DNA of 64,000 nt from Verrucomicrobiota bacterium (GTDB taxonomy: Bacteria; Verrucomicrobiota; Verrucomicrobiia; Limisphaerales; AAA164-E04), in the NCBI GenBank assembly GCA_047947115.1, contig CP170459.1:3712001-3776000 (forward strand), read 5' to 3'. Below are positions 24,788 through 45,890 of the stretch, one piece after another (position 1 is the first letter of the stretch; the number at the start of each line of letters is the position of its first letter). A program made the translations under genes and the position numbers. The notes under the pieces are model-generated. The model ran no database searches. It saw only the letters and a list, made by a program, of their open reading frames with translations, and was not told where the DNA came from.

Positions 24788-24792
24788 GCTGG

Positions 24793-27611: not shown

Positions 27612-27640
27612 TGGCACCCTATCTCGCCGTATTTCGTTTA
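27612..27640 (+). promoter_or_regulatory. Putative ECF promoter TGGCAC-N17-CGTTTA
   Basis: TGGCAC 27612-27617, 17-nt spacer, CGTTTA 27635-27640; T-run upstream; 13 nt before ATG 27654; same geometry at three other array promoters. Confidence 0.68.
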
Positions 27641-27653
27641 TGTAAGTAATCGG

Positions 27654-28637
27654 ATGAAAAAAAATATGAAAACAATCGTAAAAAAACCGACCCGCCTTGG
27701 GTTTTTCCTGGCGCTTTATGGTCTACTTTACTGGGGGCTGAGCGCGGCTTCGGCGCAGATGCCAGTCCATGTGAAGCAAAGCCTCGATCGGTTGGTGGGG
27801 CATTGGGAGACGGTGACGCAGCTTGGGGGGCGTCAAATCATTGAACACGCGACCCTCGAATGGAGCGCCGATGAGACCACTCTCTTTTATGAGGGAGAAG
27901 GAGAGAAATTTGCCATCAAAGGGCAAAAAAACCATTTCTCGGGAGTCTTTGGATGGGATGCCAAATCGCAACTGGTTCGGGAGTTTGGCTTTGATAATCA
28001 GGGTGGGACGTTCTTTGCGGATCACTCTATCACGGCCGATTCCTGGTCCGACATAGTGACGGCCACGTCCATTGGGGCGGATGGTCAGACCGTCTCTGAG
28101 GTTTTTAAACGGACTTTTCATTTTGAGTCCGCAGACACCTTTGTTCTGGAATCCAAGAATCGGGTTTTGAGGGGGCAAAAAGGGTTCAAAACGGTATTCA
28201 GAAGAGTTGCTAGTAAGGAGACAGAGGCGACCGATAGCCCCTGTCCCTGGGAGTGGATGTTGGGGCATTGGACGGTCGAGCGGAGTGACGGTTCGTCAGC
28301 CAAAGTTCACTGGGATAAACCAAGATCGAACGTCGACTCGGTAGTGGGTAAATGGTGGGAGTCCGATGGCAATGAGTTTCAAGAGCTTGTCGGGTGGGAG
28401 CCTGACCGAAAACATTTAATAGCCCATGGCTACGGCTTCAAGGGATCCTATTTTAGCGTGCGATTTAACGAAGTAAGCCGCAATGTGATGCGTGGTTTCC
28501 TTCGTAGCCGGGATATGGAAGGGGTTCTTCAAATGTCAGTGGTCCATTTAAATCGGGTTTCCCAAAAAGAGGTTCAGTCCAAAATCATCATGGCTGATGG
28601 CTCCATTGTCTCTGAAACATTCCGTCGATCAAAATGA
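27654..28637 (+). CDS. Exported protein, two lipocalin-like/DUF1579-like barrel modules
   Basis: Signal peptide ending ASA-Q; LDRLVGHWE... and WEWMLGHWT...; repeated GWDAK/GWEPD motifs. Confidence 0.8.
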   Translation: MKKNMKTIVKKPTRLGFFLALYGLLYWGLSAASAQMPVHVKQSLDRLVGHWETVTQLGGRQIIEHATLEWSADETTLFYEGEGEKFAIKGQKNHFSGVFGWDAKSQLVREFGFDNQGGTFFADHSITADSWSDIVTATSIGADGQTVSEVFKRTFHFESADTFVLESKNRVLRGQKGFKTVFRRVASKETEATDSPCPWEWMLGHWTVERSDGSSAKVHWDKPRSNVDSVVGKWWESDGNEFQELVGWEPDRKHLIAHGYGFKGSYFSVRFNEVSRNVMRGFLRSRDMEGVLQMSVVHLNRVSQKEVQSKIIMADGSIVSETFRRSK

Positions 28638-28783
28638 AGGTTAATCCTTACGGGGTTACCTGGATTTGTCCCTTTTGATAACGCCTTGTTCATTCAGCAA
28701 GAAGGGCATTGTTGCCATCGGAGAGTTAGTTGAAATCGGAGGTTAAGAACGAATTAAAACACACGCAGAAAAAACAGACAGTT

Positions 28784-29596
28784 ATGAATAGACGATTAAA
28801 ACTAATTGGGTTTGCCGCCCTCGTGGCCGGCTTTTGTTTCGGGAAAAGCTTCAGTCTTATGGCGCAGGAAGAGGAGCCACCTCCGATGTACATCAACATT
28901 GGCTTTTACAAAGTCGATCAGGAAAACAGGGCTGCCTATGAAATGTTGATGAAGGATGTTTTTGGACCCATCATGCAAAAACGGGTTGACGAGGGATGTC
29001 TTAACAATTGGATTTTTCGACGCGTTCTCCCCAATTCTTCGCTGTTCGGGGAATTCACTCATATGACGCTTGATGTCATGCTGCCTGGTGAGGAGGGGTA
29101 TTGGAATTGCGAGGCCAATCTGGAGGAGGTCTTTCCGGGGCTTAGTCCTGAGGTCAGGGAATATCTATACCAAGAGAAAAACAGTCTCAGAACCTTGGTT
29201 CAACGAGTTAGGACTTCCTATGTGGCTGGTTACACTTCGCTGACGCAGGCCCCCCCGATTGCCGTTTTCAATTTGAGTAAAACGAAATCCGACCAATACG
29301 AAGCTAAACATCGAGATGGATTTGCTGACTTTTTTGCCGAAGGGAGTAACACGGTGGCCTGCCACGCCATGAAGCGGATTGACTCCACGGCCTGGGCAAA
29401 ATGGGAATGGGACTACCTCACGGTTGACTGCTACGAGACTCCGGCAAAGATGCGCGAGCCCGTTCGCTTTCCGGCTGAAAAAAGTCGGTATTACCAAGAG
29501 AACTACGGTCCCGCCTCCGATCAACGGGATATTCTTATGCGTGCTGAGACCCGCCTTTTATTCGCCACGGAAAAAAAAGAGGCTCCCCAAAACTAA
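28784..29596 (+). CDS. Exported protein, paired dimeric alpha+beta-barrel-like modules
   Basis: Signal peptide ending LMA-Q; FYKVDQENRAAYEMLMKDVFGPIMQKRVDEGCLNNWIFRRV, resembles central parts of 34790, 39106 and 43649 genes. Confidence 0.78.
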   Translation: MNRRLKLIGFAALVAGFCFGKSFSLMAQEEEPPPMYINIGFYKVDQENRAAYEMLMKDVFGPIMQKRVDEGCLNNWIFRRVLPNSSLFGEFTHMTLDVMLPGEEGYWNCEANLEEVFPGLSPEVREYLYQEKNSLRTLVQRVRTSYVAGYTSLTQAPPIAVFNLSKTKSDQYEAKHRDGFADFFAEGSNTVACHAMKRIDSTAWAKWEWDYLTVDCYETPAKMREPVRFPAEKSRYYQENYGPASDQRDILMRAETRLLFATEKKEAPQN

Positions 29597-29637
29597 GAGT
29601 AGGTCATTTTTAACAAACTGAGGCAAAAGGAAACGAA

Positions 29638-30216
29638 ATGCGATTTAAGCAAAGTTATTCGAGCATTCTTAAAGCGTTGTTTTTGAGTGTCACGCTGGGG
29701 GTTTTGTCATCGTCCGTTGTGACCGGCGCCGAACCGAGTCCTTCATTGAATCGTGAGTTGGCTCCTTTGTCGTGGCAACTGGGCACATGGAAGTGGTCAC
29801 AGCTTGAGGGTGATGTTGTGAATTCGGGCGTGGTGGAAATTCGTTCAGGCCTCAACGGGACGGCTATTTTTCATGACGGTCACAGCACTGCTGGGGGTGA
29901 GTTTCGCTTTCATGTGAGTGTGGCCTTTGATCCTCAGCGGGGCGTGCCAGTCGCGCGTGGTAGCAATAACCATGGGGAGGTTTGGCAAGATCTGGTGGGC
30001 CTATTCGAAGGCCGGTGTGTGATGAGGCGGACCTACATCAATGCAAAGCCGGTGATGAAAATCGATGGCACGCAATCGGAAGGTATGGGCATCCATACCC
30101 GCATCATCACTCAGACCAGAATCAATCATGACACCTGGAAACACGAGCAAGTGTTGATCCTTCCCTCAGGCAAGGCGGAGACACGCTTTGTTGCCCGCCT
30201 GGAAAGGGTGAAGTGA
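29638..30216 (+). CDS. Exported single lipocalin-like barrel protein
   Basis: Signal peptide; ELAPLSWQLGTWK...LNGTAI...FDPQ; similar to 30332 and 38279 genes. Confidence 0.8.
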   Translation: MRFKQSYSSILKALFLSVTLGVLSSSVVTGAEPSPSLNRELAPLSWQLGTWKWSQLEGDVVNSGVVEIRSGLNGTAIFHDGHSTAGGEFRFHVSVAFDPQRGVPVARGSNNHGEVWQDLVGLFEGRCVMRRTYINAKPVMKIDGTQSEGMGIHTRIITQTRINHDTWKHEQVLILPSGKAETRFVARLERVK

Positions 30217-30331
30217 TCCGTTGAACGTTGGTTTTGTCCCCAGGCCCAGTTTTCTCACTCAAACCATTGGCAAGAATGACTAATCGGCTCTGTTGGCCCA
30301 TTGAATACAAACGACTGCTTACTTTCAAACC

Positions 30332-31636
30332 ATGAACCCTCGAACACTGATCTTACTCGCGATGTTGGTCTGCTCGGCGTCTGCCCTAGCGGCGGAGAGC
30401 GACGCGCCCCTATTGCATCCACAACTTAAGCATCATGCGTGGCAGTTGGGATCCTGGATGGCCAAAGGTGGCAATGGGAACCATTGGGTGATCAGTTTTG
30501 CGCCGGCACTGGATGGGAATGCGATTGTTCTGGATGGCAAGCAGATCGATCCTCATGGGGACACGGTCGGAAGTGTGCACGCGGTCCGGATTTACGATCC
30601 CGATCTGAAAGCGTTGGTCACTCATTTTAAGGGGGCCAACACCGAAGCGGCATGGAATAACGTCGGTACTATCAAGCCCGGCCTGACCAGTTTTCGAAGG
30701 ACGACTGTTGATGAAGAGGGTCAGATTCAAACCTTTCTCACTGTGGACAAGGAGATCGACGCCGAAACCTATCACAATTTCGGAGTCACGGTGGATGCTG
30801 AGGGAAACGCAACCGCTCGTGATCCTTGGGAGCACCGAAGGGTGACTCGGATCGTAAGGGCGATCGACCACGTCCGCGAGAATGAGGAAGCCTATGTCTT
30901 AAACCTGGCCGCCGGTGCTTATCAGTTCCGGCCTGAGCAGTGGGCGGCGTCCGATCTGGAAATGACCATTCCTCTGCTATCCAATGCGATTCAATCGAAT
31001 CCTAACAACGCCCGGTTACGCTCCGCTCGGGCAAAGATTCATCTGCTAAGACACGAGTGGGAGTTCGCGGCAAAGGATTATTTGAAGTTTTCTGAATTAG
31101 ACGAAAAGGGATTTAATGACGGACACCATGCCAGTTTAACCTGGATGGACGGGGCAGCGGCCCAGGTACAGATTGGCGATATCTCGGCTTACCAGACTTT
31201 TGTGGCGCGAATGTTGAACCGTTTTGGAGGCTCCATGAACTTGATGACCGTGGAGCGGGTCGCGAAATCGGCCCTGTTCTTTGAGTCGACGAAGGTGGAT
31301 TTAAAAAAGGCTGGTGATTTGGCGGATCTTTCTTTGAAGTTCGAATGGCCTCATGCCCGATTTGTAAAGGCCTTAGTTGAATACCGATCGGGGCGGTTGA
31401 AAAGCGCCGCGGGGTTTGTTGACGAATGTCTCGCTCGAGCACCCAAACAGCAACCTTTTCTTTCTATCCAAGCCAACCTCCTGGGAGCCTTGATCGCCAA
31501 AGCCCAGGGCAACGAAGAGAAACTTCAATCCCATCAGGTCAAGGCGGAGCGTCACATGAAGGACCGGGTTTATGGTTGGTTTCATAATAAGGTCATTGGC
31601 GAGGCCTTACTCAAGGAATTGAAGAGGGGTCTTTAG
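30332..31636 (+). CDS. Exported lipocalin-like barrel + TPR-like helical protein
   Basis: Signal peptide ending ALA-A; LKHHAWQLGSW...LDGNAI...YDPD; C-terminal helical repeats NPNNARLRSARAKIH, ERVAKSALF, VKALVEYRSG. Confidence 0.82.
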   Translation: MNPRTLILLAMLVCSASALAAESDAPLLHPQLKHHAWQLGSWMAKGGNGNHWVISFAPALDGNAIVLDGKQIDPHGDTVGSVHAVRIYDPDLKALVTHFKGANTEAAWNNVGTIKPGLTSFRRTTVDEEGQIQTFLTVDKEIDAETYHNFGVTVDAEGNATARDPWEHRRVTRIVRAIDHVRENEEAYVLNLAAGAYQFRPEQWAASDLEMTIPLLSNAIQSNPNNARLRSARAKIHLLRHEWEFAAKDYLKFSELDEKGFNDGHHASLTWMDGAAAQVQIGDISAYQTFVARMLNRFGGSMNLMTVERVAKSALFFESTKVDLKKAGDLADLSLKFEWPHARFVKALVEYRSGRLKSAAGFVDECLARAPKQQPFLSIQANLLGALIAKAQGNEEKLQSHQVKAERHMKDRVYGWFHNKVIGEALLKELKRGL

Positions 31637-31737
31637 ATAGAAGGCCATTAAGCTTGGGGAGACGTCCGATTTGGCGGTGATATCAGACTCCTCGACGAGG
31701 TCTCTCTGGAGTCGGACGGCTAACTTAGAAATTTAGA

Positions 31738-32829
31738 ATGATGAATCATAAAACAAACTTAATTGGATGTACCCTGATCGCGTGCCTGCTGTTTGCAGGC
31801 GGACGGATGATGGGTGAAGAAACGCTGCGTATGCCCTCGAGTTGGAAGGAGTTGGTGGCGTTTCGAATGGCCAAGGGGGATCTAGGGGAGTGGAAGGGAA
31901 CAGGTGTGACCACCGGGATCTGGGCGGGCATTCCGGCCGGCTTGGATTATGAAATATCCGAGAGCGTGGATTGGAACGCTGACCGGACGAAACTGTTGAA
32001 TTCCCATCGGTTCAAGACCAGGGCTGGTGCGATTCTCAGCACGGGGGCGGGTTTCGTCACCTTTGATGCCCAGCGCGGCGGATTCTATGCCAGTGGATCG
32101 GGTTACGATAGCGGGCAATTGTACACGGGGTTCAGTCGCCTGGTCGGCTTGGGCAGGGATCGGGAGGTCTGGACTTACACCGAATCGATCGGGGGGCAGA
32201 CCTACAACGTCCGCAGAACGACCCGATGGGTGTCCGATACTGAGAAAGTGGTGACGTCACAGCGGGAGGGAGGCGCCGCGACCGCCGACGTCGTACGATT
32301 GACGAAGGTGGTGAAGGGACAGGGTAAAGGTCAGGGCCAGGGAAAGATTGCCCCCTCCTCGCTAGAGGATTTCTACGAATTCTGTGACTTGTTGGAGGGA
32401 CGTTGGATGCGCGATGTGATCCTGATTGCCGACTGGCCCGGGGTCGGATTGAAACGGGGGGAAACACTGACCGGCTATGATTCGTTCTCAAAATTACTGG
32501 ACGGGGAGTTACTACAGTGGCGTTCGTCTGCTGGAGAAGCGGAATACACCGCCTTTTTCCACTGGGACAGCGCGTCCTCAACCATCCAGACCACGGCCTA
32601 CAACGCCTCTGGCGCCATGCATCATCTGGTGTGGTGGAAGGAGGGAGACGGTCATTATACGTTTAAGTTGGATCGAGCCTTTGAGCGAGATGGCAGGCGA
32701 TTGAAAGGGCAGGCAAGTTTTGTTTTCGAGGACGATGGCCGTGCCTTTCGATTCCTCGGGGAAGGCCTCAAGCTGGGGGGTGAAAAACTGGATCCCCTCC
32801 GTGACGTGTTCCGTAAGGTTTCCAAGTAA
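31738..32829 (+). CDS. Exported protein, two barrel modules joined by a GQGK linker
   Basis: Signal peptide; DLGEWKGTG..IWAGIPAG and LLEGRWMRD..ADWPGVG; FDAQ/WDSA motifs. Confidence 0.8.
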   Translation: MMNHKTNLIGCTLIACLLFAGGRMMGEETLRMPSSWKELVAFRMAKGDLGEWKGTGVTTGIWAGIPAGLDYEISESVDWNADRTKLLNSHRFKTRAGAILSTGAGFVTFDAQRGGFYASGSGYDSGQLYTGFSRLVGLGRDREVWTYTESIGGQTYNVRRTTRWVSDTEKVVTSQREGGAATADVVRLTKVVKGQGKGQGQGKIAPSSLEDFYEFCDLLEGRWMRDVILIADWPGVGLKRGETLTGYDSFSKLLDGELLQWRSSAGEAEYTAFFHWDSASSTIQTTAYNASGAMHHLVWWKEGDGHYTFKLDRAFERDGRRLKGQASFVFEDDGRAFRFLGEGLKLGGEKLDPLRDVFRKVSK

Positions 32830-32902
32830 AGGCGTGTACCCTTCACCATGTTATGGAGGGAAAAAACGCCTGTAACTGAAGCGAAGATAAAGCCGAAAAG
32901 AA

Positions 32903-34705
32903 ATGAACAAGAGATTAGTGAGTCTGTTTTTACTGGGATCCTTTTGCGTCACGGGATGGGCGCAGGATTGGTCCGCGATGCGGGGCGCCTGGAAGAGGGA
33001 AAACCGATACCGTTTTCAATGGGATGTCGATGACACCGATCTTTCGGCCGTCATCGGTCTGCAAGTGGATGCTGAAGGCACGGTCGAGAGCATGTGGGAG
33101 GCTTGGGTAGCGCCGCCCAATGAAAACGGATTCAGCCCCCGGATGTATGTGAGTTCCGGCGGGACGGTGGGCTATGCGGCCCAAACCTTCAAAGACGGGG
33201 AGATGCATCTTTTTTGGATGCCCCGGAACGGAGGAGGGGGTGGGGGGCATGTCTCGGCCAAGCTCTCCAAGGATGGGATGTCGACGGAACAGCGGGGAGG
33301 AATGTCGCTTGGTCCGAACGGTTTTTCGGAAAACACCGGGTTGAAAATAGGCCTGACCAAGTTGCCTAACAGCGATGTGAAGGGTTGGAAAACCCTTCGC
33401 GCGCTCCGCGAATCAGGGGTGATCAAGATGTCCGATCCGAATGAGACATCCCTTTTCGAACCCAGCCTGGAACCGCTTCTGGGGCGTTGGCAGTCGACTC
33501 GGCCCGACGGCAGCCTGGCGTTGGAGATTCGCTGGAGGCCCTCTTGCCAGGGAGCATTTTTAGTGGAGCGTTACGCTTTCTTTGACGAAGCCGGCAGGGT
33601 CACCGCTTCGGGACTCAACATTAGCGGGAAAGATCCGTTTTCCGATCAGGTCTTAATGTGGGGCAACAGTGATCAAGGCTTTCACCAAAAGGGGGGGTGG
33701 GATTTTAAAGGGGATAAGAGCTTCATCCAGCGCGAGGGCAACCACCGATTGGTTCGAAACCTCAAAGAGGATGGCACGATCCAGGCCCACTGGGAGCAGA
33801 GAGTGAACGGGGAATACCAGAAGGGCAAAGACTCCCAGTCTTATCGGTTGACCAAGGTTCCCTCCAGCGATGAGGCACTCTCTGTCATAGAGACTCACAT
33901 TGACCGTTTTGTCACCGTGTTCAACCGAGGGGATTTACGCGAGCTAAAAAAGCTCTACGCGAAAGATATCGTCAAGGTCACGAGTCGATCCAGAAATCCG
34001 TTGATCGGGTGGGATGCGGTAAGGGCGGATTTTGAAGGACGCGCAGGGGCGGCGGATAAATTGAAGGCCAAGGTTTTACGTGCCTCATTTTTAACGCCTG
34101 AATACGTGATGGGATCAGGTGAGTTCATGTTCGTCGGGCCGGATGGTAAGACCAAGGCTGCTGGTAAGTGGGGTAATGTTTTCCGCATTGAGAACGGTCG
34201 TTGTCTGCTGGTGCAGGAAGCGGCGTTTCTGAACCGGATCGAGGGGGCTGCCTTTGATGCTTCCGGCTGGGAGCTCGGATCCGTTCAGGCGGACAGGCTG
34301 ACAAAGTCCGAGCGTTCGGCTTACCGGAGTGCTGATCGCAGTATCGCGGACTACGTTGAAGGTTGGAAGCGGCGGGAGGTCGGGGCCTTGGTTGATGTGT
34401 TTCACCATGCCGCGATCCGTTCGGTTTCAGGCGTCGAGGGAGTTCGATGGAATCACGCTTCGATTGAGCGATCTTTCAAACAGGAGTTGGCTGGATCAAT
34501 AGGTCAGCAGTCGCCTGAACTTGAGGCCGTGACACTGGGTGCGCGCCCCATTGGCGGAAGAATGGTGATGGCGTTTGGTCAATGGCAGGGCAAGTCCAAG
34601 GAGGGCGGCCGGGTGACCGAGGGGGGGCTCTGGGGCAATGTCCTGTTGCAAGACGGTGACCAGGTCAAAATCATACTCGAGTCCGCAGGTGTTTATCAGC
34701 CGTAA
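32903..34705 (+). CDS. Exported protein, two barrel modules + two SnoaL/DUF4440-like domains
   Basis: Signal peptide ending GWA-Q; MRGAWKR, LEPLLGRWQS; FVTVFNRGDLRELKKLYAKD and YVEGWKRREVGALVDVFHHAA, each ending G.WGNV. Confidence 0.84.
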   Translation: MNKRLVSLFLLGSFCVTGWAQDWSAMRGAWKRENRYRFQWDVDDTDLSAVIGLQVDAEGTVESMWEAWVAPPNENGFSPRMYVSSGGTVGYAAQTFKDGEMHLFWMPRNGGGGGGHVSAKLSKDGMSTEQRGGMSLGPNGFSENTGLKIGLTKLPNSDVKGWKTLRALRESGVIKMSDPNETSLFEPSLEPLLGRWQSTRPDGSLALEIRWRPSCQGAFLVERYAFFDEAGRVTASGLNISGKDPFSDQVLMWGNSDQGFHQKGGWDFKGDKSFIQREGNHRLVRNLKEDGTIQAHWEQRVNGEYQKGKDSQSYRLTKVPSSDEALSVIETHIDRFVTVFNRGDLRELKKLYAKDIVKVTSRSRNPLIGWDAVRADFEGRAGAADKLKAKVLRASFLTPEYVMGSGEFMFVGPDGKTKAAGKWGNVFRIENGRCLLVQEAAFLNRIEGAAFDASGWELGSVQADRLTKSERSAYRSADRSIADYVEGWKRREVGALVDVFHHAAIRSVSGVEGVRWNHASIERSFKQELAGSIGQQSPELEAVTLGARPIGGRMVMAFGQWQGKSKEGGRVTEGGLWGNVLLQDGDQVKIILESAGVYQP

Positions 34706-34789
34706 TCGGTCGCTCAAATGGAGCTTTTCGAGCCGTTCGATCAACAATCACGACAGAATTTTAAAAATGAAACAAAGATAACAGAAAAA

Positions 34790-36460
34790 ATGAAAACAAA
34801 GATAACAGATAGAATGAAGGGGGCGGCATGGCGTTTGGGCGGGATGCTTTTCCTCGTGATGCTGCCCTTGGCCGGGTTGTCGCAACAGGGGCAGGGTCGG
34901 TCTTTTGAGGTGCGGCTCAAGGAAGCGACGAAACCATGGGACTACGGCGTGATCGCCTACGTCGCGGTCGATCCGGCGAAGGAAGATCTTTACCTGGAGT
35001 TCGTCGAGGAATGGGCCGAGGAGATCGACAATCGGATTATCGAAAAAGGCTATGCCCTTCAATCGGGTTGGAACAAAACCGATTCGGATTCAGCAGTGTC
35101 TAACTATGTCTATTGGATGGTCTCCCGGGAAGTGGAGGCCATGTTGCCTGGTAATCCTCTGGGAAGTGCCATGATGAATGAGGTTTGGAGTGAGATCGCA
35201 AAAGAGGAGGGTGAGGCGAAGGCGGAAGCGATAAAGACCCGTCTCGAACAGAAATTCGAAGCCTCTGCCAAGATGATCGGCACGCAGACCGTCGCCCTGA
35301 TTGATTGGACCTATGCCACCGACTGGGAAGCTGTTGATTTTGACAAGGTCCGAATAGAGTTCGGCCAGATGGTTCCTCGCGAGGGTAAAGAGCAGGCGTA
35401 TGTGGCTTTGGAACGGGATTATTTTTCAAAGCTCTGGCAGTCCCACTTAGGTTTTGACTTCTCATTCACAGGGTGGAGCATGATGAAGGAAATCGCGAGC
35501 ACTGGCGTGACCCCGGAGGCCCCTTTCATCACCATCCGAACCTACCGTAGTGACAAACCTTCCCCGACCGCAGCCCAGTGGGAAGCATTCAGGAAAACCA
35601 GCCTCAAACTGCCGGAAGGGACGAACATGGGGGCTTTGAGAGAATTCACGAATATCACCTATCGGGGCGTCCATACCTCTGACGCAACCCGGTCGCCTGA
35701 GGCAAAGGCTTGGTCGGACTTGGTCGGCACTTGGACGGCTCGAAATCCCAATGGCGGATGGCGGACGAAGACGATCAGTCCCTTCATTGAACAGATCCAG
35801 TACTTTGGCCCTGATGGCAAGATGGGTGGTGAGCAGCGTAAACCGATGTCGATCCGTCACATCAAGGGACTCAATTACTTTAGTGCTCACATGTCGGGAG
35901 GTAACTACACCAGCATTTTCGATGTGCATGACGGCAAATGGTATGAGCAATCCAGATCGATCTTTGAGGAGGCCAGTGGTCAGCCGGACCGCTTCTTTAT
36001 TTACAGCAAATCGGACCAACCCGAGCCGATTGACCGATCCGCATTCACAAGAAGTGGACCCGAAATCGAACAGGTTAAGGCAACCGTTCAGGCCTATGCA
36101 GCGGGTGACATTGACGCCTATCTAAGCCATTTCACCGAGAATGCCACCGCCGGCCACAACAGTTGGTCGAGAGAAGGGAGTGTGCCGGTCTCGACCATCG
36201 CCGCCGTTCATCGGGATCATCACCGTCAGCTGGCTGGGAAGATCGAGATCACCAAGTCAATCTATGAACTGGTTACCCTCAAGGGAGGTGGAAAACATGC
36301 TCACGCCTGGTTGAACTTCAAACACACCTACAAGACCGGCGAGATCGTCGAAGTGCCCGTCTTTGTGGCGTTTGGGATCAATCGGCAGAACAAGATCACA
36401 TACGAGTGGGCCTTCTATGACAGCGCTCTCCTGCCCAAGGCCTCGCCCTATAAAGAGTAG
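34790..36460 (+). CDS. Exported protein: alpha+beta pair + barrel + SnoaL-like domain
   Basis: Signal peptide; full-length paralog of 39106..40803 (LVGTWT, HDGKWYEQ, GGKHAH.W, VFVAFG, TYEWA); start ATG 34790 or slightly downstream. Confidence 0.84.
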   Translation: MKTKITDRMKGAAWRLGGMLFLVMLPLAGLSQQGQGRSFEVRLKEATKPWDYGVIAYVAVDPAKEDLYLEFVEEWAEEIDNRIIEKGYALQSGWNKTDSDSAVSNYVYWMVSREVEAMLPGNPLGSAMMNEVWSEIAKEEGEAKAEAIKTRLEQKFEASAKMIGTQTVALIDWTYATDWEAVDFDKVRIEFGQMVPREGKEQAYVALERDYFSKLWQSHLGFDFSFTGWSMMKEIASTGVTPEAPFITIRTYRSDKPSPTAAQWEAFRKTSLKLPEGTNMGALREFTNITYRGVHTSDATRSPEAKAWSDLVGTWTARNPNGGWRTKTISPFIEQIQYFGPDGKMGGEQRKPMSIRHIKGLNYFSAHMSGGNYTSIFDVHDGKWYEQSRSIFEEASGQPDRFFIYSKSDQPEPIDRSAFTRSGPEIEQVKATVQAYAAGDIDAYLSHFTENATAGHNSWSREGSVPVSTIAAVHRDHHRQLAGKIEITKSIYELVTLKGGGKHAHAWLNFKHTYKTGEIVEVPVFVAFGINRQNKITYEWAFYDSALLPKASPYKE

Positions 36461-36516
36461 GAACCTCATTGGGCGAGTCCTGCGAATCGCGGCAAAAAGG
36501 CATAAATCGAACCACC

Positions 36517-38180: not shown

Positions 38181-38278
38181 ATAGGCAATGGAGGGGCCAT
38201 TGCATCGTGTAAATATGATGGAACCTGGCATGTCTCGTGTCGATCACAAAGAGGAAGTTTGTGCAATGGATCGATGGT

Positions 38279-38827
38279 CTACTTGGAGCCTTTTGGGGCT
38301 GACTGCGCAGCGATGCGTTTGTGTTCGGTCGATGGCAGTTGGTTGACGCGTCCTTGGGCATCGATCTGGATTCGGATGAAAGTGTAGTTCTCATCGTCGC
38401 GTCGAATGTCCATTCCGACATGCGATTCGATCTCTCCATCCTCATTCAGGCTCTCGGTTCGGAAGATGGTCTTGTCCTTGAACAAGGAGCCCTTGTTTTC
38501 CCAGTAATCGCCCTTGCTGTTGATGAAAACAGTTCTCACGGTTTTTTCTTTCTTGTCGTAAAACCGCATTCCGTGAATTTGGTTGCCGTTGCTGTGGCTT
38601 CCCTGGATTTGAATCATCGTACCCTTCAACTGAGCAGTGAAGGAAACCGTCCACTTGCCGTCTGGGAAGGTGGCTTGCCATGTGCCGAGCTGCCAGGCCA
38701 TGGGTTGAAGGGGGCTGATAAGGTTTTGCTCATCGGCTCTTGTCATGCTAACCCATGGCAGTATGACAAGGAACAGGGTCCAGACGGAGGCCCGGAGGTG
38801 GTAACTGATATTATTTAGCAATCTCAC
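38279..38827 (-). CDS. Exported single lipocalin-like barrel protein
   Basis: Signal peptide ending TRA-D; LQPMAWQLGTWQ...WTVSFTAQLKGTMI...RFYDKK, paralog of the 30332 N-domain; GTG start 38827 inferred. Confidence 0.8.
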   Translation of the reverse strand: MRLLNNISYHLRASVWTLFLVILPWVSMTRADEQNLISPLQPMAWQLGTWQATFPDGKWTVSFTAQLKGTMIQIQGSHSNGNQIHGMRFYDKKEKTVRTVFINSKGDYWENKGSLFKDKTIFRTESLNEDGEIESHVGMDIRRDDENYTFIRIQIDAQGRVNQLPSTEHKRIAAQSAPKGSK

Positions 38828-38834
38828 ATTGATA

Positions 38835-38863
38835 ACCACGACTTGTGGGTACCAACTGCGCCA
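38835..38863 (-). promoter_or_regulatory. Putative ECF promoter TGGCGC-N17-CGTGGT
   Basis: Minus strand: T-run, TGGCGC (38863-38858), 17-nt spacer, CGTGGT (38840-38835). Confidence 0.68.
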
Positions 38864-39059: not shown

Positions 39060-39088
39060 TGGCGGGTTTATCCCGCGTTGCACGTTTC
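39060..39088 (+). promoter_or_regulatory. Putative ECF promoter TGGCGG-N17-CGTTTC
   Basis: T-run, TGGCGG 39060-39065, 17-nt spacer, CGTTTC 39083-39088; ATG at 39106. Confidence 0.68.
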
Positions 39089-39105
39089 AATATTGTAATT
39101 CATCT

Positions 39106-40803
39106 ATGAAAAATACAAGACTTCTCATAATTTATACACTATTAGCCACTTTGTTGGCAAGCTGCGCTACAACGAACCAGACTTCGACCGAAATTGCCGC
39201 ACCGAAAGCAGAACAAAATCAACAAACCACACCGGCCGAAGAAGTTCCTTATTCGGTTCGCTTAAAGCAAGCAAGGCAACCGTACGGATTTGTCCTATTC
39301 CAGAGCATGGATGTTGCTGATGGAATGGAGAAACAATATCTAAGGGTTGAAAAGGAGTGGCTTAAAATCCACGAACATTTGGCCAAGCAGGGAAAAATCC
39401 TTTCCTGGGGCCTGGCCAAAGCCAGAGAGAATAGTCTTGGTTATGAATACGTAACCTGGAAGACGTTTAGGTCACTAAAGGACCTAGAGGCAACTTACGA
39501 TTGGGACGAATTAGGAAAGTGGATGGGACAAGAAAAATTAGATCTGCTTTTCGAAAAGACAAATGAGGCAAGAACGATAACTGGAAGTCAAGTCCTGCGG
39601 CTGCGCGACTACGCTCAAATGCCCTTATCCCAGACAAGCATTTTTGAGAACCTCTCACCACAAGACATCTCATTCAGGTTAAATTTCCTCGCCCCAACAC
39701 CTGGAAAAAGAGCCAAATATTTGGAGATTGTCGAAAAGGCATACAGTCCATTGTTTGAGAAAAGGGCCGAGATAGACAAAACTTTCCTCGGCTGGGAATA
39801 TCAGGAGCTCATGTATTACAATGGCCAGGGCAACACAGAGCCATTTAGAGGAATAGATATTTTTAGAAATGACATCCCAGAGCTGACAGAAGCTGAGCAA
39901 GAAATCGTAAATGCTGAACTCCCAAGCTGGCCGGAGGATATCTACCCAATGTCAAAGCGCGGGGAGTTACGGACTATGACTACCGTCACCTTCGATATTG
40001 TGCAGGTCATCATGCAAAATGCTGAATCGACTCTCATGAATGAGCTAGTTGGCACTTGGACACACACAAACCCTGATGGCTCATACCGAACAAAAACAGT
40101 TACTCCTTATGCTGAGCAACTCAGTTTTTTCGCTTCAGATGGAACTCTTTTGCAGAAAAGGCAGCCTATTCCCTTGCGCATCGAAGCAAGCAACAAATTG
40201 ACTAGGTTCACGGGCTTTTTCCCAAATGGAAAAACATGGAATGCGTCCATACAAATTCACGATGGAAAATGGTATGAGCAGGATAGAGCCTTCACCGACC
40301 TCGAACAGTTTGATGGTGTTTATCCAGCGGCGCCCGATGCCTACTTCGTCTACGAAAAGTCAGCAGAACCGGCTCAAAGAAATCTTGCTGCCTACGACAA
40401 TTCTGAGGAAGGCACGGCCCTAATTCGAAACATCGTAGAATCATATGCCAAGGGTGATTTCAAAAAACTTCGTAGCTACTTTAGTGATGATGCAAAAGTT
40501 GTTCACAACCAATGGGGACCAGCCGCCGAAGGAATAACTATCGATGAGCTAATTGAGACTCATAAAAAACACCATGCCACACTTGCAAAACCTGTCGAAG
40601 TCCTGAATAGCATCTACGAAGCGGTCACATTGCCAAATGGCGGCAAACATGCACATGGATGGATTAACATGCGTAATACAACCAAATCAGGAGAAGTCAC
40701 AGACACCAACGTTTTCGTCGCATTTGGTGTAGGAAATGATGGCAAAGCCACCTATGAATGGGCTCTTTTCGACCCGGCAGGAATACCATCATACCAAAAG
40801 TAG
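39106..40803 (+). CDS. Lipoprotein: alpha+beta pair + barrel + SnoaL-like domain
   Basis: Lipobox LLASC; YLRVEKEWLKIHEHLAKQGKILSWGLAK; LVGTWTHTNPDGSYRTK; SnoaL-like IVESYAKGDFKKLRSYFSDDA. Confidence 0.85.
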   Translation: MKNTRLLIIYTLLATLLASCATTNQTSTEIAAPKAEQNQQTTPAEEVPYSVRLKQARQPYGFVLFQSMDVADGMEKQYLRVEKEWLKIHEHLAKQGKILSWGLAKARENSLGYEYVTWKTFRSLKDLEATYDWDELGKWMGQEKLDLLFEKTNEARTITGSQVLRLRDYAQMPLSQTSIFENLSPQDISFRLNFLAPTPGKRAKYLEIVEKAYSPLFEKRAEIDKTFLGWEYQELMYYNGQGNTEPFRGIDIFRNDIPELTEAEQEIVNAELPSWPEDIYPMSKRGELRTMTTVTFDIVQVIMQNAESTLMNELVGTWTHTNPDGSYRTKTVTPYAEQLSFFASDGTLLQKRQPIPLRIEASNKLTRFTGFFPNGKTWNASIQIHDGKWYEQDRAFTDLEQFDGVYPAAPDAYFVYEKSAEPAQRNLAAYDNSEEGTALIRNIVESYAKGDFKKLRSYFSDDAKVVHNQWGPAAEGITIDELIETHKKHHATLAKPVEVLNSIYEAVTLPNGGKHAHGWINMRNTTKSGEVTDTNVFVAFGVGNDGKATYEWALFDPAGIPSYQK

Positions 40804-40871
40804 AGTAAACATCGGATTACATGACAAAATGTCACACATTGTAATAATGGAAGGTAACGTGGTTCCTGAAA

Positions 40872-42119
40872 TGCCTGGGACCCCTGCATTAAGTCCACCT
40901 TGAGTGATAGGATTTTCCAGCTAAGAAAGGAAAATCCTAATGAAAAAGACACGTAGATCGCCCGAACAGATTATCCGCATCCTTCGTGACAGCGAAGGAC
41001 TGAGTGTGGATGAAGCCTGTCGCAGGCATGAGATCAGCGCGCCAACCTACCACCGCTGGAAAGCGAAGTATGGTGGAATGGGCGTCAAGGAAGCCCAGAG
41101 GCTGAGAAATATTGAGAAAGAGAACTCGGAGCTGAAGAAGATACTGGCCGAGCAGATGCTCAAATCCAAGGCACTGGAGATTGCTCTAGAAAAAAACCTC
41201 TGAGCCCGGAGCGTCGGCGTCGTATGGCTCTGAAGATTCAGGAGACGCTGTCATGTTCCGGGCGAAGTGTCTGTCGCTGGCTGGGATTGAATCGCAGCAC
41301 ACTGCGTTACGCTCCCAGGGCAGTGCCGGACAAGAAGAAGCTGCTTGAAGCGGTGATCGTGAAGATGTCGAAGAAGTATCCCTGCTTCGGCTATCGCAAG
41401 ATCACGCGTAAGCTGGTCGAGCAAGGCTGGGCCGTGGGCAAGAAGCTGGTGCAGCGTGTGCGTGAGGAGTGTTTAAAGGTGCCTGCTCCCAAGCCGCGCA
41501 AACGCCGTCAGGGCATCTCTACCGGGCTTCCTCAGCAGGCGAAGCATCGAAATCGTGTCTGGGCGTGGGACTTGGTTAGCGACCATACGGTGCTTGGAGG
41601 GAAACTGCGGGGCTTGAATCTGATCGACGAGTTTACGAAGGAATGCCACTGCATCCACTCTGACCGTGCGATCAAGGCAACGGACGTGCTGAGCATCCTC
41701 GAAGAAGCCATTAAGGAACATGGTGCACCCGAGTATATCCGCTCGGACAACGGGCAAGAGTTTATTGCTACAGCGATTCAGCAGTGGCTCCGGGATAGAA
41801 GGATCAAGACGATCTATATTGACCCTGGATGTCCTTGGCAGAACGGCTACTTGGAGAGCTTTAACGATAAGTTCCGCCGCGAGTGCCTGAACCGTGAACT
41901 AATCTAAACGTTGAGTGAATCCCGCGTCATCTTCGCCGATTACCGGCATCTTCATAACTACGAAAGACCGCATCGCTCTCTGGCTTGCTCACGCCCCAAG
42001 CGTATGCCAAACAACTTACCTACCTCTCTGGCCTCGGTCGGGCTACACCCTCCCTCAGACAGAGAGGCGGTCAACCGCAACCTAAATCACAAGTAAACAC
42101 CTGGAAAAAACCACTTGGA
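40872..42119 (+). mobile_element. IS3-family element (orfA intact, orfB with premature stop)
   Basis: Left end TGCCTGGGACCCCTG; orfA 40940..41203; orfB with VWAWDL, IRSDNGQEF, PWQNGYLESFN, TAA at 41905-41907; right end lost at the next IS. Confidence 0.9.
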
Positions 42120-43644
42120 TGTAGTGCCCCCCAAAAAAGGGACCAGTAGTTAAGAGAGATTTTTCCGGTGTCAGAGAGTAAAATCGAGACACCAAATGAA
42201 AGCAAAACGCAAACGATACGACGCCCAGTTCAAAGCCAAAATCGGCTTTGAAGCCATCCGTGGAATCAAGACGGTTCAGCAGATCGCCAAGGAAAACCAG
42301 ATCCATCCGACACAGGTGAATCAATGGAAGCAGATCCTCATTGAAGATGCTTCAAGTTTGTTTGAGGGGAAGCGTCCATCTCAGGACCAGGACGATTGGG
42401 CGAATGAACGAGACCGACTCCATGCCAAGATCGGGCAGCAAAGCGTTGAGATCGATTGGTTGGCAAAAAAGTGCAAGCAACTGCATCTCTAACCGAGCGT
42501 CGGGCGATGGTCGTAAAAGGCCATCGCCAGATCAGTTTGAGAAGGCAGTGTGAACTTTTGAATATTAGTCGTAGCAAGGTTTTCTACCAAGGCGCTCAGG
42601 AATCGGAAGAGAACCTCCACTACATGCGATTGATCGATGAGATCTATATGGATCAACCCGTTTACGGGTATCGCCGAATGACAGCGGTGCTGCAACGGAT
42701 GGGGTTTCAGGTCAATGAAAAGCGAATTCAACGGCTGATGAGGTTGATGGGATTGGAGGCCGTTTATCCAAAACCAAGAACCAGCATCCCCATGCCAGGC
42801 CACAAAAAGTATCCATACCTTTTGCGGAACCGAAAACCCACCGGCCCCAATCAAGTATGGAGCATGGATATTACATATATTCCTATGAAAATGGGATTTA
42901 TGTATCTGATGGCCGTTATGGATTGGTGGAGTCGTTTGGTGATCACGTGGGAATTATCCAACACGATGGAAGCTGAGATTTGTGCCAAGACAGCAGGTGT
43001 TGGACTGAGTGCAAGCAAGCATACTCCTCTGATTTTTAACGTGGATCAGGGCAGCCAATTTACCAGCAACGTTTTCATTGATACGATCGAGTCATACGCA
43101 GTGAAGGTAAGCATGGACGGCCGTGGACGTGCATTGGACAACGTCTTTATCGAACGCTTATGGCGTAGCATTAAGTATGAGGACATATACCTTCGTGGCT
43201 ACGAGGATGGGCTCTGCCTGCACCAAGGATTAGAGAGGTGGTTCGACCACTACAACAATCACCGGCCTCACCAAGCGCTTGATTACGCCACGCCATGGGA
43301 GTGGCATTTCACCGCCCAGAAATATGGAGCGACAATCCCGACTTGGATCGACGAGGAGGAACTCAAAATCTAATGTGAGGTAACAAAACAAGGAGACTCA
43401 AAGCAACTTATTGGGATGCCTCATGAACATGCGCGCAGAAAAATCCAGTCCTCCATTCCAGCCCGCGAGTGCCGCTTCGCGGAGACATAAGAAGCGGGCT
43501 TCCATTCCGGACTGGATTTTTCTCTTCCGATCGGGCACCCTTGAAGAAGTTGGCAGCGGAATGCCAGTTCAAACACCAAAACCGACACCGGAGAATATAT
43601 CTTAAATTTCCGCCTCCGTGGTCCCCTAGTTGGGGGGCACCTCA
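42120..43644 (+). mobile_element. IS3-family element, apparently intact
   Basis: TIRs TGTAGTGCCCCCCAAAAAAGGGACCA / TGGTCCCCTAGTTGGGGGGCACCTCA; orfA 42196..42492 and orfB ~42489..43373 (VWSMDITY, DQGSQFTS, DNVFIERLWRSIKYE). Confidence 0.93.
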
Positions 43645-43648
43645 ATCG

Positions 43649-45733
43649 CTATAACTTTTCGTAAATCAAAAATTTGGTAGGTTCCCCACTACTATCGCGC
43701 CAAATACCCCGCATCTGTTCATACCATTTATTATCCTTAATCTTATATATCGAATGATACGTTCCATTTGCGTGAAAGGAGTAGAAATGATTCAAACCAC
43801 CCTTGACTTCAATTTTCATCGGCAAGATAAACTTACTTTTTAAAAGACCATCGGAATCATAAAGTTCCAATTGTTCGGTTCCTTGCGTGATATGCTTGAT
43901 GCGATAACTACCATCCTCATTGGTATGCTTCCAAGAACCCTTTAATTTTTTCCATTCATTTTTCACAGGATGAAATTCATGGTTAGCCTTTATAAGGATC
44001 TCAAACTGGGGACCGCTCGCCATTTTCCGCAACTCACCCCACTCAACATTAGGCTTGTTAAGAATACTCATTGCTTTTTGGGTGGTAGATTGCCAAGCAC
44101 TTTCACCAGGAAGACTCTCCGCGCTTTTAAAATGTGCAGTAACAAAATCATGGGTTATACCTGATCGATTAGACTCGATTAGGCGATGTAATGCCCACCC
44201 CCCAAAAGTCGGATCCATGCTTGAAACAATTTGCCAAAATGGTTTTGCCATGTTCATTTCTGCAAAAAGGTAGTCCTGAATTTTACCAGGTTGCACATTC
44301 ATATAGCCCATGTTGATTTGCCGGATATCCATGCCTCCTGAATTAGGCGACCAATATTGATCGACAGCCTGATAAATATCACTTCCGGCAGATTGAACAT
44401 AAGGCCATGTCCTTTCTCCTAAATCTGCTCTACTGCCAACAGCTGAATAATCCAACGTGTCCCATATAGAACCGTTTTGCATATCTTCCATCGACGCATA
44501 CACCTGCACGGTAGCGTAGTTTGGCTCACCCATATTTGCGTTTTTTATTTTGGCCACATGCCAATGAAGCAAGCTACCTCTTTGCATTCTCTGTTCGTGA
44601 AGTCCTTTCCATTCCTCTTCAGCAGCGAGATATGATTGAACGTCTTGGTCGGCAACTATTTTAAAATCTGTCTTAATGTAACCCGTAAATCTTTGGGATT
44701 CTTTTGTCCTTTGAAAATATGAACGTTTAGTCTTAGCGTTACTATCTTCAGCATTATCAATATTAGCATTTTGTTTTCTTTTAAGTATATAACCGCCAAC
44801 AACATCTGTGTAAATGCCGTTATCTTTTGACTGCCATTTGGCATGTATTTCATTTAAACTAAGGAAAGACCTAACTAGACGACTATCACCCTGACGTTGT
44901 CCTGTGGTCATGCTCCCCATGAAATCCCAGCCGCCAACTTGAGAAAAACCATTTTTAGTTATGCTATACATCACGAGCTCTCCATTTGCGTGATTTCTCC
45001 GAGTTAGGTTGTAACCGCCACCGGTGGGGTTACCCTCTTCATCGAAAAAAACGAATCTCTCATGAAGACTTGCCCCGAGATCAAATTCCCGAAATAGAAT
45101 TTTCAAATTAACATTTCCCGACTCACCAATGGATTCCCAAGACCCATGAAGATCTTCTAATCTTGGGTCTAATGTTTTTATTTTATTTTTGGCCCATACA
45201 ACTTCGCCTTTATCTCCGGGGTTATAGTCAATTTTTTGTGCTTCGATACTTGGAGTCTTTTCAATATACGATTTATCAAAGCCAATAACATTCACTGAGT
45301 ACTCTGAGAATTTGTCCCGCTTTTTATTCCAAGATAACTCAATTTGCCCTGAGACATTGCCATTCTCAGACGATCCTGAGAAGGTGACGACGCTTCCTTT
45401 GTCTTCAAACCTTTCGGTTGATCGTCCCAATCGGCCATTGGAGTCAGCCCAAAGTCTGTCTCCAATTTGATTATTTTGAATAGTTTGAAATGCACTCCAA
45501 GCTGATACAGGCTCAAGAGTTTCCGGATCGATACTAACGTGAGCTACCCGTTGCAAACCAACTACACCGTCCGTCCAATACCATCTGAAACCTTGACGCT
45601 TAGTTCCATCTTCATCTACGGAATGCCACTTCCATGCCCCATCTAGCGGGTGTTTTGAAATTTCTTGGGCATCGACTTCCACAAACGTACTTACCAATAT
45701 TAAGGCAATGCCTAGTATTTGAATGTTTTTCAT
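43649..45733 (-). CDS. Exported chimeric protein: two barrels + alpha+beta pair + barrel
   Basis: Signal peptide ending VDA-Q; N-half aligns with 32903 gene (ERF.FFDE.G, GF.Q.GGWDF, RLVR); C-half aligns with 34790/39106 genes (GSWKHTNEDGSYR, KWYEQ); visibly AT-richer. Confidence 0.85.
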   Translation of the reverse strand: MKNIQILGIALILVSTFVEVDAQEISKHPLDGAWKWHSVDEDGTKRQGFRWYWTDGVVGLQRVAHVSIDPETLEPVSAWSAFQTIQNNQIGDRLWADSNGRLGRSTERFEDKGSVVTFSGSSENGNVSGQIELSWNKKRDKFSEYSVNVIGFDKSYIEKTPSIEAQKIDYNPGDKGEVVWAKNKIKTLDPRLEDLHGSWESIGESGNVNLKILFREFDLGASLHERFVFFDEEGNPTGGGYNLTRRNHANGELVMYSITKNGFSQVGGWDFMGSMTTGQRQGDSRLVRSFLSLNEIHAKWQSKDNGIYTDVVGGYILKRKQNANIDNAEDSNAKTKRSYFQRTKESQRFTGYIKTDFKIVADQDVQSYLAAEEEWKGLHEQRMQRGSLLHWHVAKIKNANMGEPNYATVQVYASMEDMQNGSIWDTLDYSAVGSRADLGERTWPYVQSAGSDIYQAVDQYWSPNSGGMDIRQINMGYMNVQPGKIQDYLFAEMNMAKPFWQIVSSMDPTFGGWALHRLIESNRSGITHDFVTAHFKSAESLPGESAWQSTTQKAMSILNKPNVEWGELRKMASGPQFEILIKANHEFHPVKNEWKKLKGSWKHTNEDGSYRIKHITQGTEQLELYDSDGLLKSKFILPMKIEVKGGLNHFYSFHANGTYHSIYKIKDNKWYEQMRGIWRDSSGEPTKFLIYEKL

Positions 45734-45861
45734 TTTTTTACGATATCTTGTTGGGTTCAGGGCATTGTTGGATTTTGCTGCAACTGAAATGCTTTTTTCG
45801 TTGTTAGTAACATTTACGTAGGTTCCCCAAAAAGACGAAACCAAATTAGCCCATTTTTCTT

Positions 45862-45890
45862 TACACGTATTAATGTCTCGAAGGGCGACA
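45862..45890 (-). promoter_or_regulatory. Putative ECF promoter TGTCGC-N17-CGTGTA
   Basis: Minus strand: A/T-run, TGTCGC (45890-45885), 17-nt spacer, CGTGTA (45867-45862). Confidence 0.62.

What the first reader, a model, noticed from the sequence alone, without database searches (positions are those of the whole stretch)
27612..45890. Same bipartite promoter motif TG[G/T]C[G/A][C/G]-N17-CGT in front of all four array transcription units
Seen: TGGCAC-N17-CGTTTA (27612, +), TGGCGC-N17-CGTGGT (38863, -), TGGCGG-N17-CGTTTC (39060, +), TGTCGC-N17-CGTGTA (45890, -). Each has exactly 17 nt of spacing, an A/T run just upstream, and the orientation of the downstream gene; three lie within about 20 nt of the start codon. 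The spacers are otherwise dissimilar, so this is not a recent duplication. Established: a CGT-type -10 with fixed spacing is typical of ECF promoters. Inference: this is the target promoter of the neighbouring ECF. I did not find it upstream of the sigma gene itself.
Basis: partly seen in the sequence, partly recalled or inferred. Interest (0 to 1): 0.82.

Follow-up and report, generated by a model that had tools for sequence, protein, structure and literature searches.

The report
Kinase-linked sigma promoter, naturally rewired
A two-part DNA signal in front of a cluster of genes for likely exported proteins in a coastal bacterium recurs in front of the same gene families in its relatives and is very likely the promoter read by the neighbouring, probably kinase-activated, sigma factor; two of its letters differ between lineages in step with DNA-reading residues of that sigma, one of them as published mutagenesis would predict.

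Summary
The four sites are exactly as described. The motif fits the canonical ECF register (T-36...C-31, C-13 G-12 T-11), sits near this sigma subclade and not near other TIGR02999 sigmas, and RNA contigs stop 10-21 nt after each predicted start (weak hint). In close relatives the 38863 site heads an A8-sigma-kinase operon, so it does lie upstream of the sigma gene; here insertion sequences and an allele swap broke that link. Lineages with Lys at the RpoE-Arg171 position have TGGCCC; the Gln lineage has G/A at -32 and C/G/T at -31, matching published mutagenesis (one evolutionary event). Site 45890 is less secure. Activation by phosphorylation and the function of the targets (calycin, SnoaL and ferredoxin-like folds) are inferred. 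An ECF43-like regulon with a new promoter: known kind, good test case.

The parts
27612..27637 (+). Promoter site 1: TGGCAC (-36..-31), N17, CGT (-13..-11); T-run upstream; predicted +1 near 27648; heads A1-A7
   Evidence: rank 2 in the genome with a matrix from other genomes; A1 orthologues in G002 and G019 carry TGGCCC-N17-CGT; RNA contigs begin at 27660, 27667, 27714, 27714
38838..38863 (-). Promoter site 2: TGGCGC-N17-CGT; predicted +1 at 38827; heads A8 here and A8-sigma-kinase in close relatives
   Evidence: rank 4; RNA contigs stop at 38809, 38809, 38807, 38805; two of four runs have contigs that reach over or into the motif
39060..39085 (+). Promoter site 3: TGGCGG-N17-CGT; predicted +1 near 39096; heads A9
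   Evidence: rank 25; identical in L067-L069; A9 homologues in G002, G003 carry TGGCCC-N17-CGT; RNA contigs begin at 39116 in two studies
45865..45890 (-). Promoter site 4 (less secure): TGTCGC-N17-CGT; predicted +1 near 45854; heads A10
   Evidence: scores only 3.3 with the outside matrix; RNA contigs stop at 45845, 45810, 45725; no orthologous upstream region found
22988..23515 (-). ECF sigma, TIGR02999 / PF07638, ECF43-like; QATD motif (Thr46); Asp82, Gln161, Arg162, Ile165 at the RpoE Asn84, Arg171, Ser172, Phe175 positions; start at 23515 (23545 possible)
   Evidence: (136.7 bits, cut-off 126.15)
20016..22961 (-). Hanks-type Ser/Thr kinase, one hydrophobic segment near residue 387, C-terminal TolB/PD40-like propeller (weak hits)
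27666..36460 (+). A1-A7: seven genes for proteins with hydrophobic N-termini (27666, 28784, 29638, 30332, 31738, 32903, 34718); A3 and A4 are related to A8; A6, A7 carry SnoaL-like domains
   Evidence: one RNA contig covers 27660-33684, which does not prove one transcript
38279..38827 (-). A8: predicted exported 10-stranded calycin barrel; start probably the GTG at 38827 (leaderless, inferred)
39106..40803 (+). A9: predicted lipoprotein; duplicated ferredoxin-like (dimeric alpha+beta) part, beta-rich part, SnoaL/NTF2 part
43649..45733 (-). A10: protein with signal-like N-terminus, related to A6, A7, A9
23907..27590 (-). IS21-type element (about 23907-27360) and an IS3-type end (27363-27590) between the sigma and site 1
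36712..38181 (-). IS remnants; the end at 38181 cuts the A8-sigma spacer about 12 nt before the sigma start codon of relatives
40866..43647 (+). IS3-type elements between A9 and A10

Best explanation
The motif is very likely an ECF-type promoter, (T)4-5 T-G-G-C-R-B at -36..-31 and C-G-T at -13..-11, that is likely read by the neighbouring TIGR02999 sigma factor after the adjacent membrane kinase likely phosphorylates it, switching on a small local set of genes for probably exported proteins. Shown: the sites, their recurrence before homologous genes in relatives, their tie to this sigma subclade, the operon layouts, the residues. Inferred step 1 (about 0.93): the sites are promoters. Step 2 (about 0.88 for 27612, 38863, 39060; about 0.6 for 45890): this sigma reads them; Asp82 favours CG at -13/-12, Gln161 accepts C, G or T at -31, Arg162 leaves -34 loose. 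Step 3 (about 0.75): the kinase activates the sigma at Thr46 of QATD as PknS does EcfK (QATE). Step 4 (about 0.35): the targets bind, convert or neutralise small hydrophobic organic molecules in the envelope, the signal being sensed by the kinase's outer propeller. In close relatives site 38863 closes a positive feedback loop (A8-sigma-kinase); in this genome the loop is cut and the sigma has another upstream region, as in the Lys lineage, where the motif points away from the sigma.
For: Blind enumeration: GGCCC-N17-CGT tops 1.3 million words, 12/18 position-chosen regions against 2/2021; window-only matrix puts 11/18 above every background region and 0/5 G030 regions. Outside matrix ranks window sites 2, 4, 25. 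With -32/-31 left free, 9 of 11 G002 and 7 of 9 G004 matches read CC, 6 of the 11 on the 29.7-kb sigma contig; 0 of 5 in G030. Spacing 17 gives 6 hits on that contig and 4 in the array, at most 1 at any other spacing 12-22. Density 11.9 per 100 kb near the subclade (inflated by training sites) against 0.79 near 103 distant-sigma loci and 0.58 in the genome. A8-sigma-kinase order in G001, G010, G012 and L066-L072. Register equals Table S1 of PMC7776599; Dataset S3 gives Lys171 -> C 0.98, Gln171 -> C 0.28/G 0.27/T 0.41/A 0.04, Arg172 -> flat, Asp84 -> CG 0.62; observed -31 in the Gln lineage is C, G or T and never A, and -32 is G or A in all 9 listed sites plus a tenth found afterwards before the A6-like gene of L067. 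RNA contigs of the best run stop 13, 19, 21 and 10 nt after the four predicted starts.
Against: No enrichment genome-wide. Site 45890 scores 3.3 with the outside matrix and equals the TGTCGC-N17-CGT before another ECF at G000:1773518. The motif is absent before this genome's sigma. RNA data are contigs, no DNA run was laid, and run X1 has a contig spanning site 38863 and X4 one starting 5 nt before it; 7 of 18 held-out regions do not beat the background with the window matrix; G003 has sites but this sigma was not found in its 86% complete assembly; G006 and G012:C48 have subclade sigmas with at most one site found. The Lys-to-Gln change is one event on the tree, so the covariation has n = 1. 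Relatives are not independent. The genome has 29 other or same sigma matches over the TIGR02937 cut-off, four with Arg at the Ser172 position.
Confidence: 0.85

Rival explanations
1. The sites are ECF promoters, but some or all are read by another ECF sigma of the genome, for example the one at G000:1772377-1773276 or a TIGR02999 paralogue (1402039-1402611, 6018724-6019440). This is most plausible for 45890.
For: TGTCGC-N17-CGT lies 242 nt (216 nt from CGT) before the ECF at 1773276 and TGTCAG-N17-CGT before the ECF near 3545700; ECF41 and ECF42 use TGTCACA/CGTC and TGTCGAT/CGTC (PMC7826278 supplement part 13). A canonical paralogue in G010 has TGGCCC-N17-CGC beside it.
Against: The 1773276 sigma was not found in G002, G003, G004, G006 with a 50-residue query, its upstream site is not seen in 4 related loci, one of them cut short, and it has Thr at the Ser172 position, which prefers G at -34 (0.74), not the T of TGTCGC. 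The paralogue at 1402611 has Lys171/Ala175 like the TGGCCC lineage, yet 0 of 4 window sites have C at -32. G002 has nine TGGCCC sites and no TIGR02999 match other than this sigma above 66 bits (75% complete).
Confidence: 0.1
2. The motif is the binding site of an ordinary transcription factor or part of a housekeeping promoter, not an ECF promoter.
For: No direct start mapping; RNA contig ends fall 10-130 nt after the predicted starts.
Against: Strict orientation, no symmetry, fixed 17-nt spacing equal to the ECF register, covariation with the sigma helix.
Confidence: 0.03
3. The four sites are chance matches picked after the fact, or sigma-54 sites (TGGCAC resembles the -24 element; recalled).
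For: Loose pattern at background frequency genome-wide; four further matches inside genes of the window.
Against: Held-out enrichment. The sigma-54 spacing GG-N10-GC is met by 0 of 4 window sites and 4 of 10 outside sites, while CGT is invariant.
Confidence: 0.02

Closest known systems
ECF43 sigma/kinase pairs: EcfK/PknS of Xanthomonas citri, EcfP/PknT of Vibrio parahaemolyticus (PMC13147305, passages read; PMC7826278 supplement part 13 read)
   Same: PF07638-type sigma, Hanks kinase in the next gene, one membrane segment, Thr in region 2.2 (QATD here, QATE in EcfK, QTTA consensus), no anti-sigma gene seen
   Different: Verrucomicrobia, not Proteobacteria; propeller-like instead of TPR outer domain; promoter TGGC/CGT instead of the predicted GTC/CAG; targets are exported barrel/SnoaL proteins, esterases and a PQQ dehydrogenase, not a type VI secretion system
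ECF41 and ECF42 promoters (TGTCACA/CGTC; TGTCGAT/CGTC; PMC7826278 supplement part 13)
   Same: TG-C -35 element and CGT -10 element; small local regulons
   Different: Those sigmas are controlled by fused C-terminal domains; this one has none and has G at -34 in most sites plus a T-run upstream
ECF residue-to-base code of Todor et al. 2020 (PMC7776599; part 2 of main text, Table S1, Dataset S3 read)
   Same: Same register and the predicted effects of Lys versus Gln at Arg171 and of Asp at Asn84
   Different: That work made the changes in the laboratory; here the change is natural and is seen across orthologous target genes (A1, A6-like, A9)
Calycin barrels OssO/OlmO, nitrobindin, RsfG; EthD/ABM-like monooxygenases; ketosteroid isomerase / epoxide hydrolase (folds of the targets)
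   Same: Predicted folds of A8 (TM-score 0.76 to OssO) and A9
   Different: 10-23% identity only; signal-like N-termini; no activity shown

Membership tests
ECF-type promoter | Two elements at fixed spacing in the ECF register (-36..-31, -13..-11) | tested here: met
ECF-type promoter | Conserved before homologous genes while the spacer diverges | tested here: met
   met for 27612, 38863, 39060, no orthologous region for 45890
ECF-type promoter | Transcription start about 11 nt after the T of CGT | tested here: inconclusive
   RNA contig ends 10-130 nt after the predicted +1, two contigs reach over site 38863; contigs cannot map starts
ECF-type promoter | Transcribed by the cognate sigma with core polymerase | not testable with these tools
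   Needs reporter or in vitro assay
ECF-type promoter | Autoregulation (site before the sigma's own operon) | tested here: inconclusive
   Met in G001, G010, G012, L066-L072; not met in this genome nor in G002, G004, G019, where the site points away from the sigma
ECF43 (Casas-Pastor 2021) | Sigma70_ECF (PF07638) domain | tested here: met
   103 bits; TIGR02999 above cut-off
ECF43 (Casas-Pastor 2021) | Ser/Thr kinase encoded at +1 with one membrane helix | tested here: met
ECF43 (Casas-Pastor 2021) | Ser/Thr in place of DAED in region 2.2 | tested here: met
   QATD/QATE/HATD, Thr invariant in 9 of 9; motif definition
ECF43 (Casas-Pastor 2021) | Extracytoplasmic TPR domain on the kinase | tested here: not met
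   No TPR hit; weak PD40/TolB propeller hits
ECF43 (Casas-Pastor 2021) | Found only in Proteobacteria | tested here: not met
   Nearest relatives are titled Verrucomicrobiota
ECF43 (Casas-Pastor 2021) | Predicted promoter GTC (-35) / CAG (-10) | tested here: not met
   TGGC/CGT here
ECF43 (Casas-Pastor 2021) | Best score to the ECF43 group model | not testable with these tools
   Group models not held
ECF43 (Casas-Pastor 2021) | Direct phosphorylation by the cognate kinase | not testable with these tools
   Inferred from PMC13147305
Sigma-54 promoter | GG-N10-GC spacing (recalled definition) | tested here: not met
   0 of 4 window sites

The most novel reading that the evidence does not exclude
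A natural rewiring caught in the act: one Lys-to-Gln (plus Ala-to-Thr/Ile) change in the recognition helix of a phosphorylation-activated sigma was followed by matching changes at -32/-31 in every target promoter, yielding two sister sigma-promoter sets that are orthogonal to each other; the regulon is an undescribed kinase-triggered envelope response of coastal Verrucomicrobia to small hydrophobic molecules, and mobile elements switch its feedback loop on or off between strains of one population.
Probability: 0.4. Interest if true: 0.7.

Novelty: new variant of a known kind. Interest (0 to 1): 0.55.

Why it matters
Kinase-activated ECF sigmas are characterised in two Proteobacteria, and I found no printed promoter of this form for them (searches; 'TGGC' and 'GGCC' absent from the stored, cut supplement of PMC7826278). 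The motif gives a ready reporter for testing phospho-activation outside Proteobacteria, names the targets of the system (about ten promoters in G002), and supplies a natural test of the ECF recognition code with two sister sigmas and their own promoter sets, which could also serve as orthogonal kinase-driven switches. The genes are present in 19 RNA libraries from salt-marsh, estuary and other aquatic samples, so the system is probably active in nature. Conceptually it is an ordinary ECF regulon, and this scan has noted several like it in other genomes.

Tried and rejected
Genome-wide enrichment of the loose pattern: none; T-run patterns in ten relatives do not exceed reversed-pattern controls. 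Further targets in this genome: the other top matrix hits lie inside genes or have no gene downstream (558368, 342470); the A10 paralogue near 347-349 kb has no strict site within 320 nt. A family-wide TIGR02999 promoter: background density in 103 distant loci and no common -10 among 47 T-run hexamers. A third covariation in G006 (Ser at the Gly168 position, TGGTCC before its A9): one site only, pattern not enriched (21 against 43 controls); left open. G003 versus G030 before the A6-like gene: 94% alike but the -10 block differs and G030 has 19-nt spacing; one case, direction unknown; the A9-like pair is unalignable there. A TAT on both sides of the 23531-38181 interval suggested one insertion, but the sigma and the first 450 nt of the kinase are about 90% identical to L067 while the rest is 98-100%, which favours an allele swap; not settled. 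Housekeeping-type sites before the sigma: 3 against 0.8 +/- 0.9 expected, not evidence. Gaps in RNA cover over IS regions were not used. Pfam and NCBIfam name none of A1, A2, A3, A5, A8, A10; ESM Atlas hits for A8 (0.90-0.91, Lipocalin_3 33%, DUF1579 15%) are leads only. Rfam finds only a tRNA in 19000-47500. ECF217 and ECF59 descriptions were checked and not used. No complex prediction was run. Datasets S1 and S2 of PMC7776599 were too large to read, so no full predicted matrix, and no expected base for Ala, Thr or Ile at Phe175, could be computed; the group logos and Table S2 of PMC7826278 were not seen; Iyer et al. 2020 was not read (known only through PMC13147305).


Full report
OBSERVATION. 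The four sites are present as described. The pattern was fitted to its four examples, so it needed a test on other DNA.

SETTING. The sigma (22988-23515, -) passes the TIGR02999 cut-off and matches PF07638; the next gene is a Hanks kinase with one hydrophobic segment and a weakly propeller-like C-terminus. Ten genes, A1-A10, with hydrophobic N-termini form four units broken up by IS elements; a tRNA-Thr and a 44-nt copy of its end lie at 47130-47204 and 46800-46843. Record titles of the nearest sigma relatives name Verrucomicrobiota. Close homologues of the sigma were found in 3 of 13 genomes of the own family and 0 of the other 387 genomes of the order that were searched; they form one clade of 19 of 30 rows (100/97).

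OUT-OF-SAMPLE TESTS. I took 18 upstream regions from G002, G003, G004, G006, G012 and G019 by position (first gene of a run with an array homologue, or the gene divergent from the sigma); I had seen hits in many of them before, and G002/G004 pairs are orthologous. Enumerating all 5+3 words with gaps 8-27 put GGCCC-N17-CGT first, 12 of 18 against 2 of 2021 background regions; a matrix from the four window sites alone put 11 of 18 above every background region and 0 of 5 regions from G030. G030 (92% complete) has array homologues, but its best TIGR02999 match is 34 bits. In reverse, a matrix from 10 outside sites (located with window-derived patterns, so not fully blind) ranks 27612, 38863 and 39060 at 2, 4 and 25 among about 12 million positions; 45890 scores 3.3 and is not among the 348 hits above 11. 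With the last two hexamer letters free, 9 of 11 matches in G002 and 7 of 9 in G004 read TGGCCC, 2 of 7 in G003, 0 of 7 in G006, 0 of 5 in G030; six of G002's lie on the sigma's contig; total counts do not exceed the reversed controls. Near 103 more distant TIGR02999 loci the density is background.

THE SIGMA'S OWN PROMOTER. In G001, G010, G012 and metagenome loci L066-L072, A8 lies directly before sigma and kinase in the same direction, with site 38863 or a variant (TGGCGT, TGACGT) at its head. In this genome the DNA behind A8 follows the relatives' spacer to about 12 nt before their sigma start and then enters an IS; the sigma has a different upstream region without the motif, shared with L065, and the sigma with the first 450 nt of the kinase is about 90% identical to L067 while the rest is 98-100%. 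RNA contigs show both layouts: A8 running into the IS in X10 and X11, and into the intact spacer in X15, so the split is not an assembly error. In G002, G004, G019 and L077-L083 the site between sigma and neighbour points away from the sigma. Which layout is older is not settled.

FIT TO THE RECOGNITION CODE. Table S1 of PMC7776599 numbers the ECF consensus T-36 G-35 ... Mapping through SigL and RpoE alignments, the window sigma has Asp at Asn84, Gln at Arg171, Arg at Ser172, Ile at Phe175. Dataset S3 gives Asp84 -> CG 0.62, Lys171 -> C 0.98 at -31, Gln171 -> C 0.28, G 0.27, T 0.41, A 0.04, and Arg172 -> no preference at -34, which may also mean a weak mutant. In the three Lys/Ala genomes 11 of 12 position-chosen regions have a site and all 11 read TGGCCC (the 22 of 22 include sites I picked for reading CC). 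In the Gln lineage the 9 listed sites (4 distinct promoters) have G or A at -32, C, G or T at -31, and G, A or T at -34; a fifth promoter, before the A6-like gene of L067, reads TGGCGT-N17-CGT. The same target families carry TGGCCC in Lys genomes (A1, A6-like, A9). Table S1 assigns -32 to Arg171 plus Phe175, the second residue that differs. On the tree the Gln sigmas are one nested clade (100/99) among Lys sigmas: one event, so this is a consistent case, not a statistic. It still ties the motif to this sigma and not to the Lys/Ala paralogue at G000:1402611.

RNA. Nineteen RNA libraries hold the A8-A9 stretch. In four runs laid on 27591-46010, listed contigs start or stop 13, 20, 67, 67 nt after the predicted +1 of site 1; 19, 19, 21, 23 for site 2; 21, 98 for site 3 (two runs not listed); 10, 45, 130 for site 4 (one not listed). 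On L067, X2 and X3 stop at the same places on both sides of the divergent pair, but X1 has a contig over site 2 and X4 one from 5 nt before it. These are contigs, no DNA run was laid, and A/T-rich ends drop out easily: a weak hint, though the only independent support for 45890.

TARGETS. A8 folds (pLDDT 89) as a 10-stranded calycin barrel closest to the spirocyclases OssO/OlmO, nitrobindins and RsfG; A9 (pLDDT 89) matches duplicated ferredoxin-like monooxygenase-type proteins and SnoaL/ketosteroid-isomerase folds. In G002 and G004 the motif also precedes a PQQ dehydrogenase with cytochrome c, an esterase, a GDSL-CBM9 protein, a LamG protein, a DUF5684 protein and a TIR protein. An envelope response to small hydrophobic compounds is my guess (about 0.35).

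MECHANISM AND KINSHIP. By analogy with EcfK/PknS (PMC13147305, passages read), the kinase likely phosphorylates Thr46 of QATD, invariant in 9 of 9 subclade sigmas, enabling core binding. It works like ECF43 but fails three listed features of that group (phylum, TPR domain, GTC/CAG promoter), so I do not file it there.

VERDICT. Real promoter motif, very likely of the neighbouring sigma (0.85 overall; about 0.6 for 45890). Known kind of system, new promoter and targets, with a natural specificity change as the distinctive point. Unchecked notes of this scan describe similar regulons in other genomes, which lowered my novelty rating. Papers seen: PMC7826278/bioRxiv 2019.12.11.873521 (passages; supplement passages and part 13, file cut when stored), PMC13147305 (passages), PMC7776599 (part 2 of 7, Table S1, Dataset S3 parts 1-2); others only as search listings. 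Interest 0.55.

Noticed in passing
window 47130-47204 (-) and 46800-46843: tRNA-Thr(TGT) with a 44-nt second copy of its end 327 nt away; suggests the region is a tRNA-anchored island.
   Followed up: partly
window 23532-23568 and 45978-46014: A 37-nt repeat (89% alike) with only these two copies in the genome; one ends at the breakpoint just before the sigma start, the other lies 88 nt upstream of site 45890. Unexplained; possibly a scar of the rearrangement.
   Followed up: partly
window 38827 (-): In-frame GTG at the predicted +1 of A8, kept in the orthologous regions: possible leaderless mRNA.
   Followed up: partly
window 22520-23530: Sigma and kinase 5' part about 90% identical to L067, remainder 98-100%: mosaic by recombination; this allele has Ile where the others have Thr at the Phe175 position.
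   Followed up: partly
L043 9949 (-) (G010:C78): TGGCCC-N17-CGC with a T-run between a canonical TIGR02999 sigma (Lys171) and its kinase gene; may be the related promoter of that paralogue.
   Followed up: no
G000:C1 1773518 (-) and 5542078 (+): Two TGTCGC-N17-CGT sites with nearly the same spacer, one before an ECF gene that ends after 300 codons here while relatives have about 920.
   Followed up: partly
G000:C1 4772233-4772786 (-): A TIGR02999 paralogue split in two reading frames, next to a kinase fragment.
   Followed up: no
window 42120-43644: The IS between A9 and A10 is absent in run X3, replaced by 299 other letters.
   Followed up: no
G020:C11 24279-70531: About ten TIGR02999-like sigma genes within 46 kb of one contig; 25 matches in that genome.
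   Followed up: no
L034 10457-12012 (G012:C48): A Lys-type sigma whose kinase frame stops after 377 codons, next to a fragment of an A9-like gene; G012 carries both sigma types.
   Followed up: no
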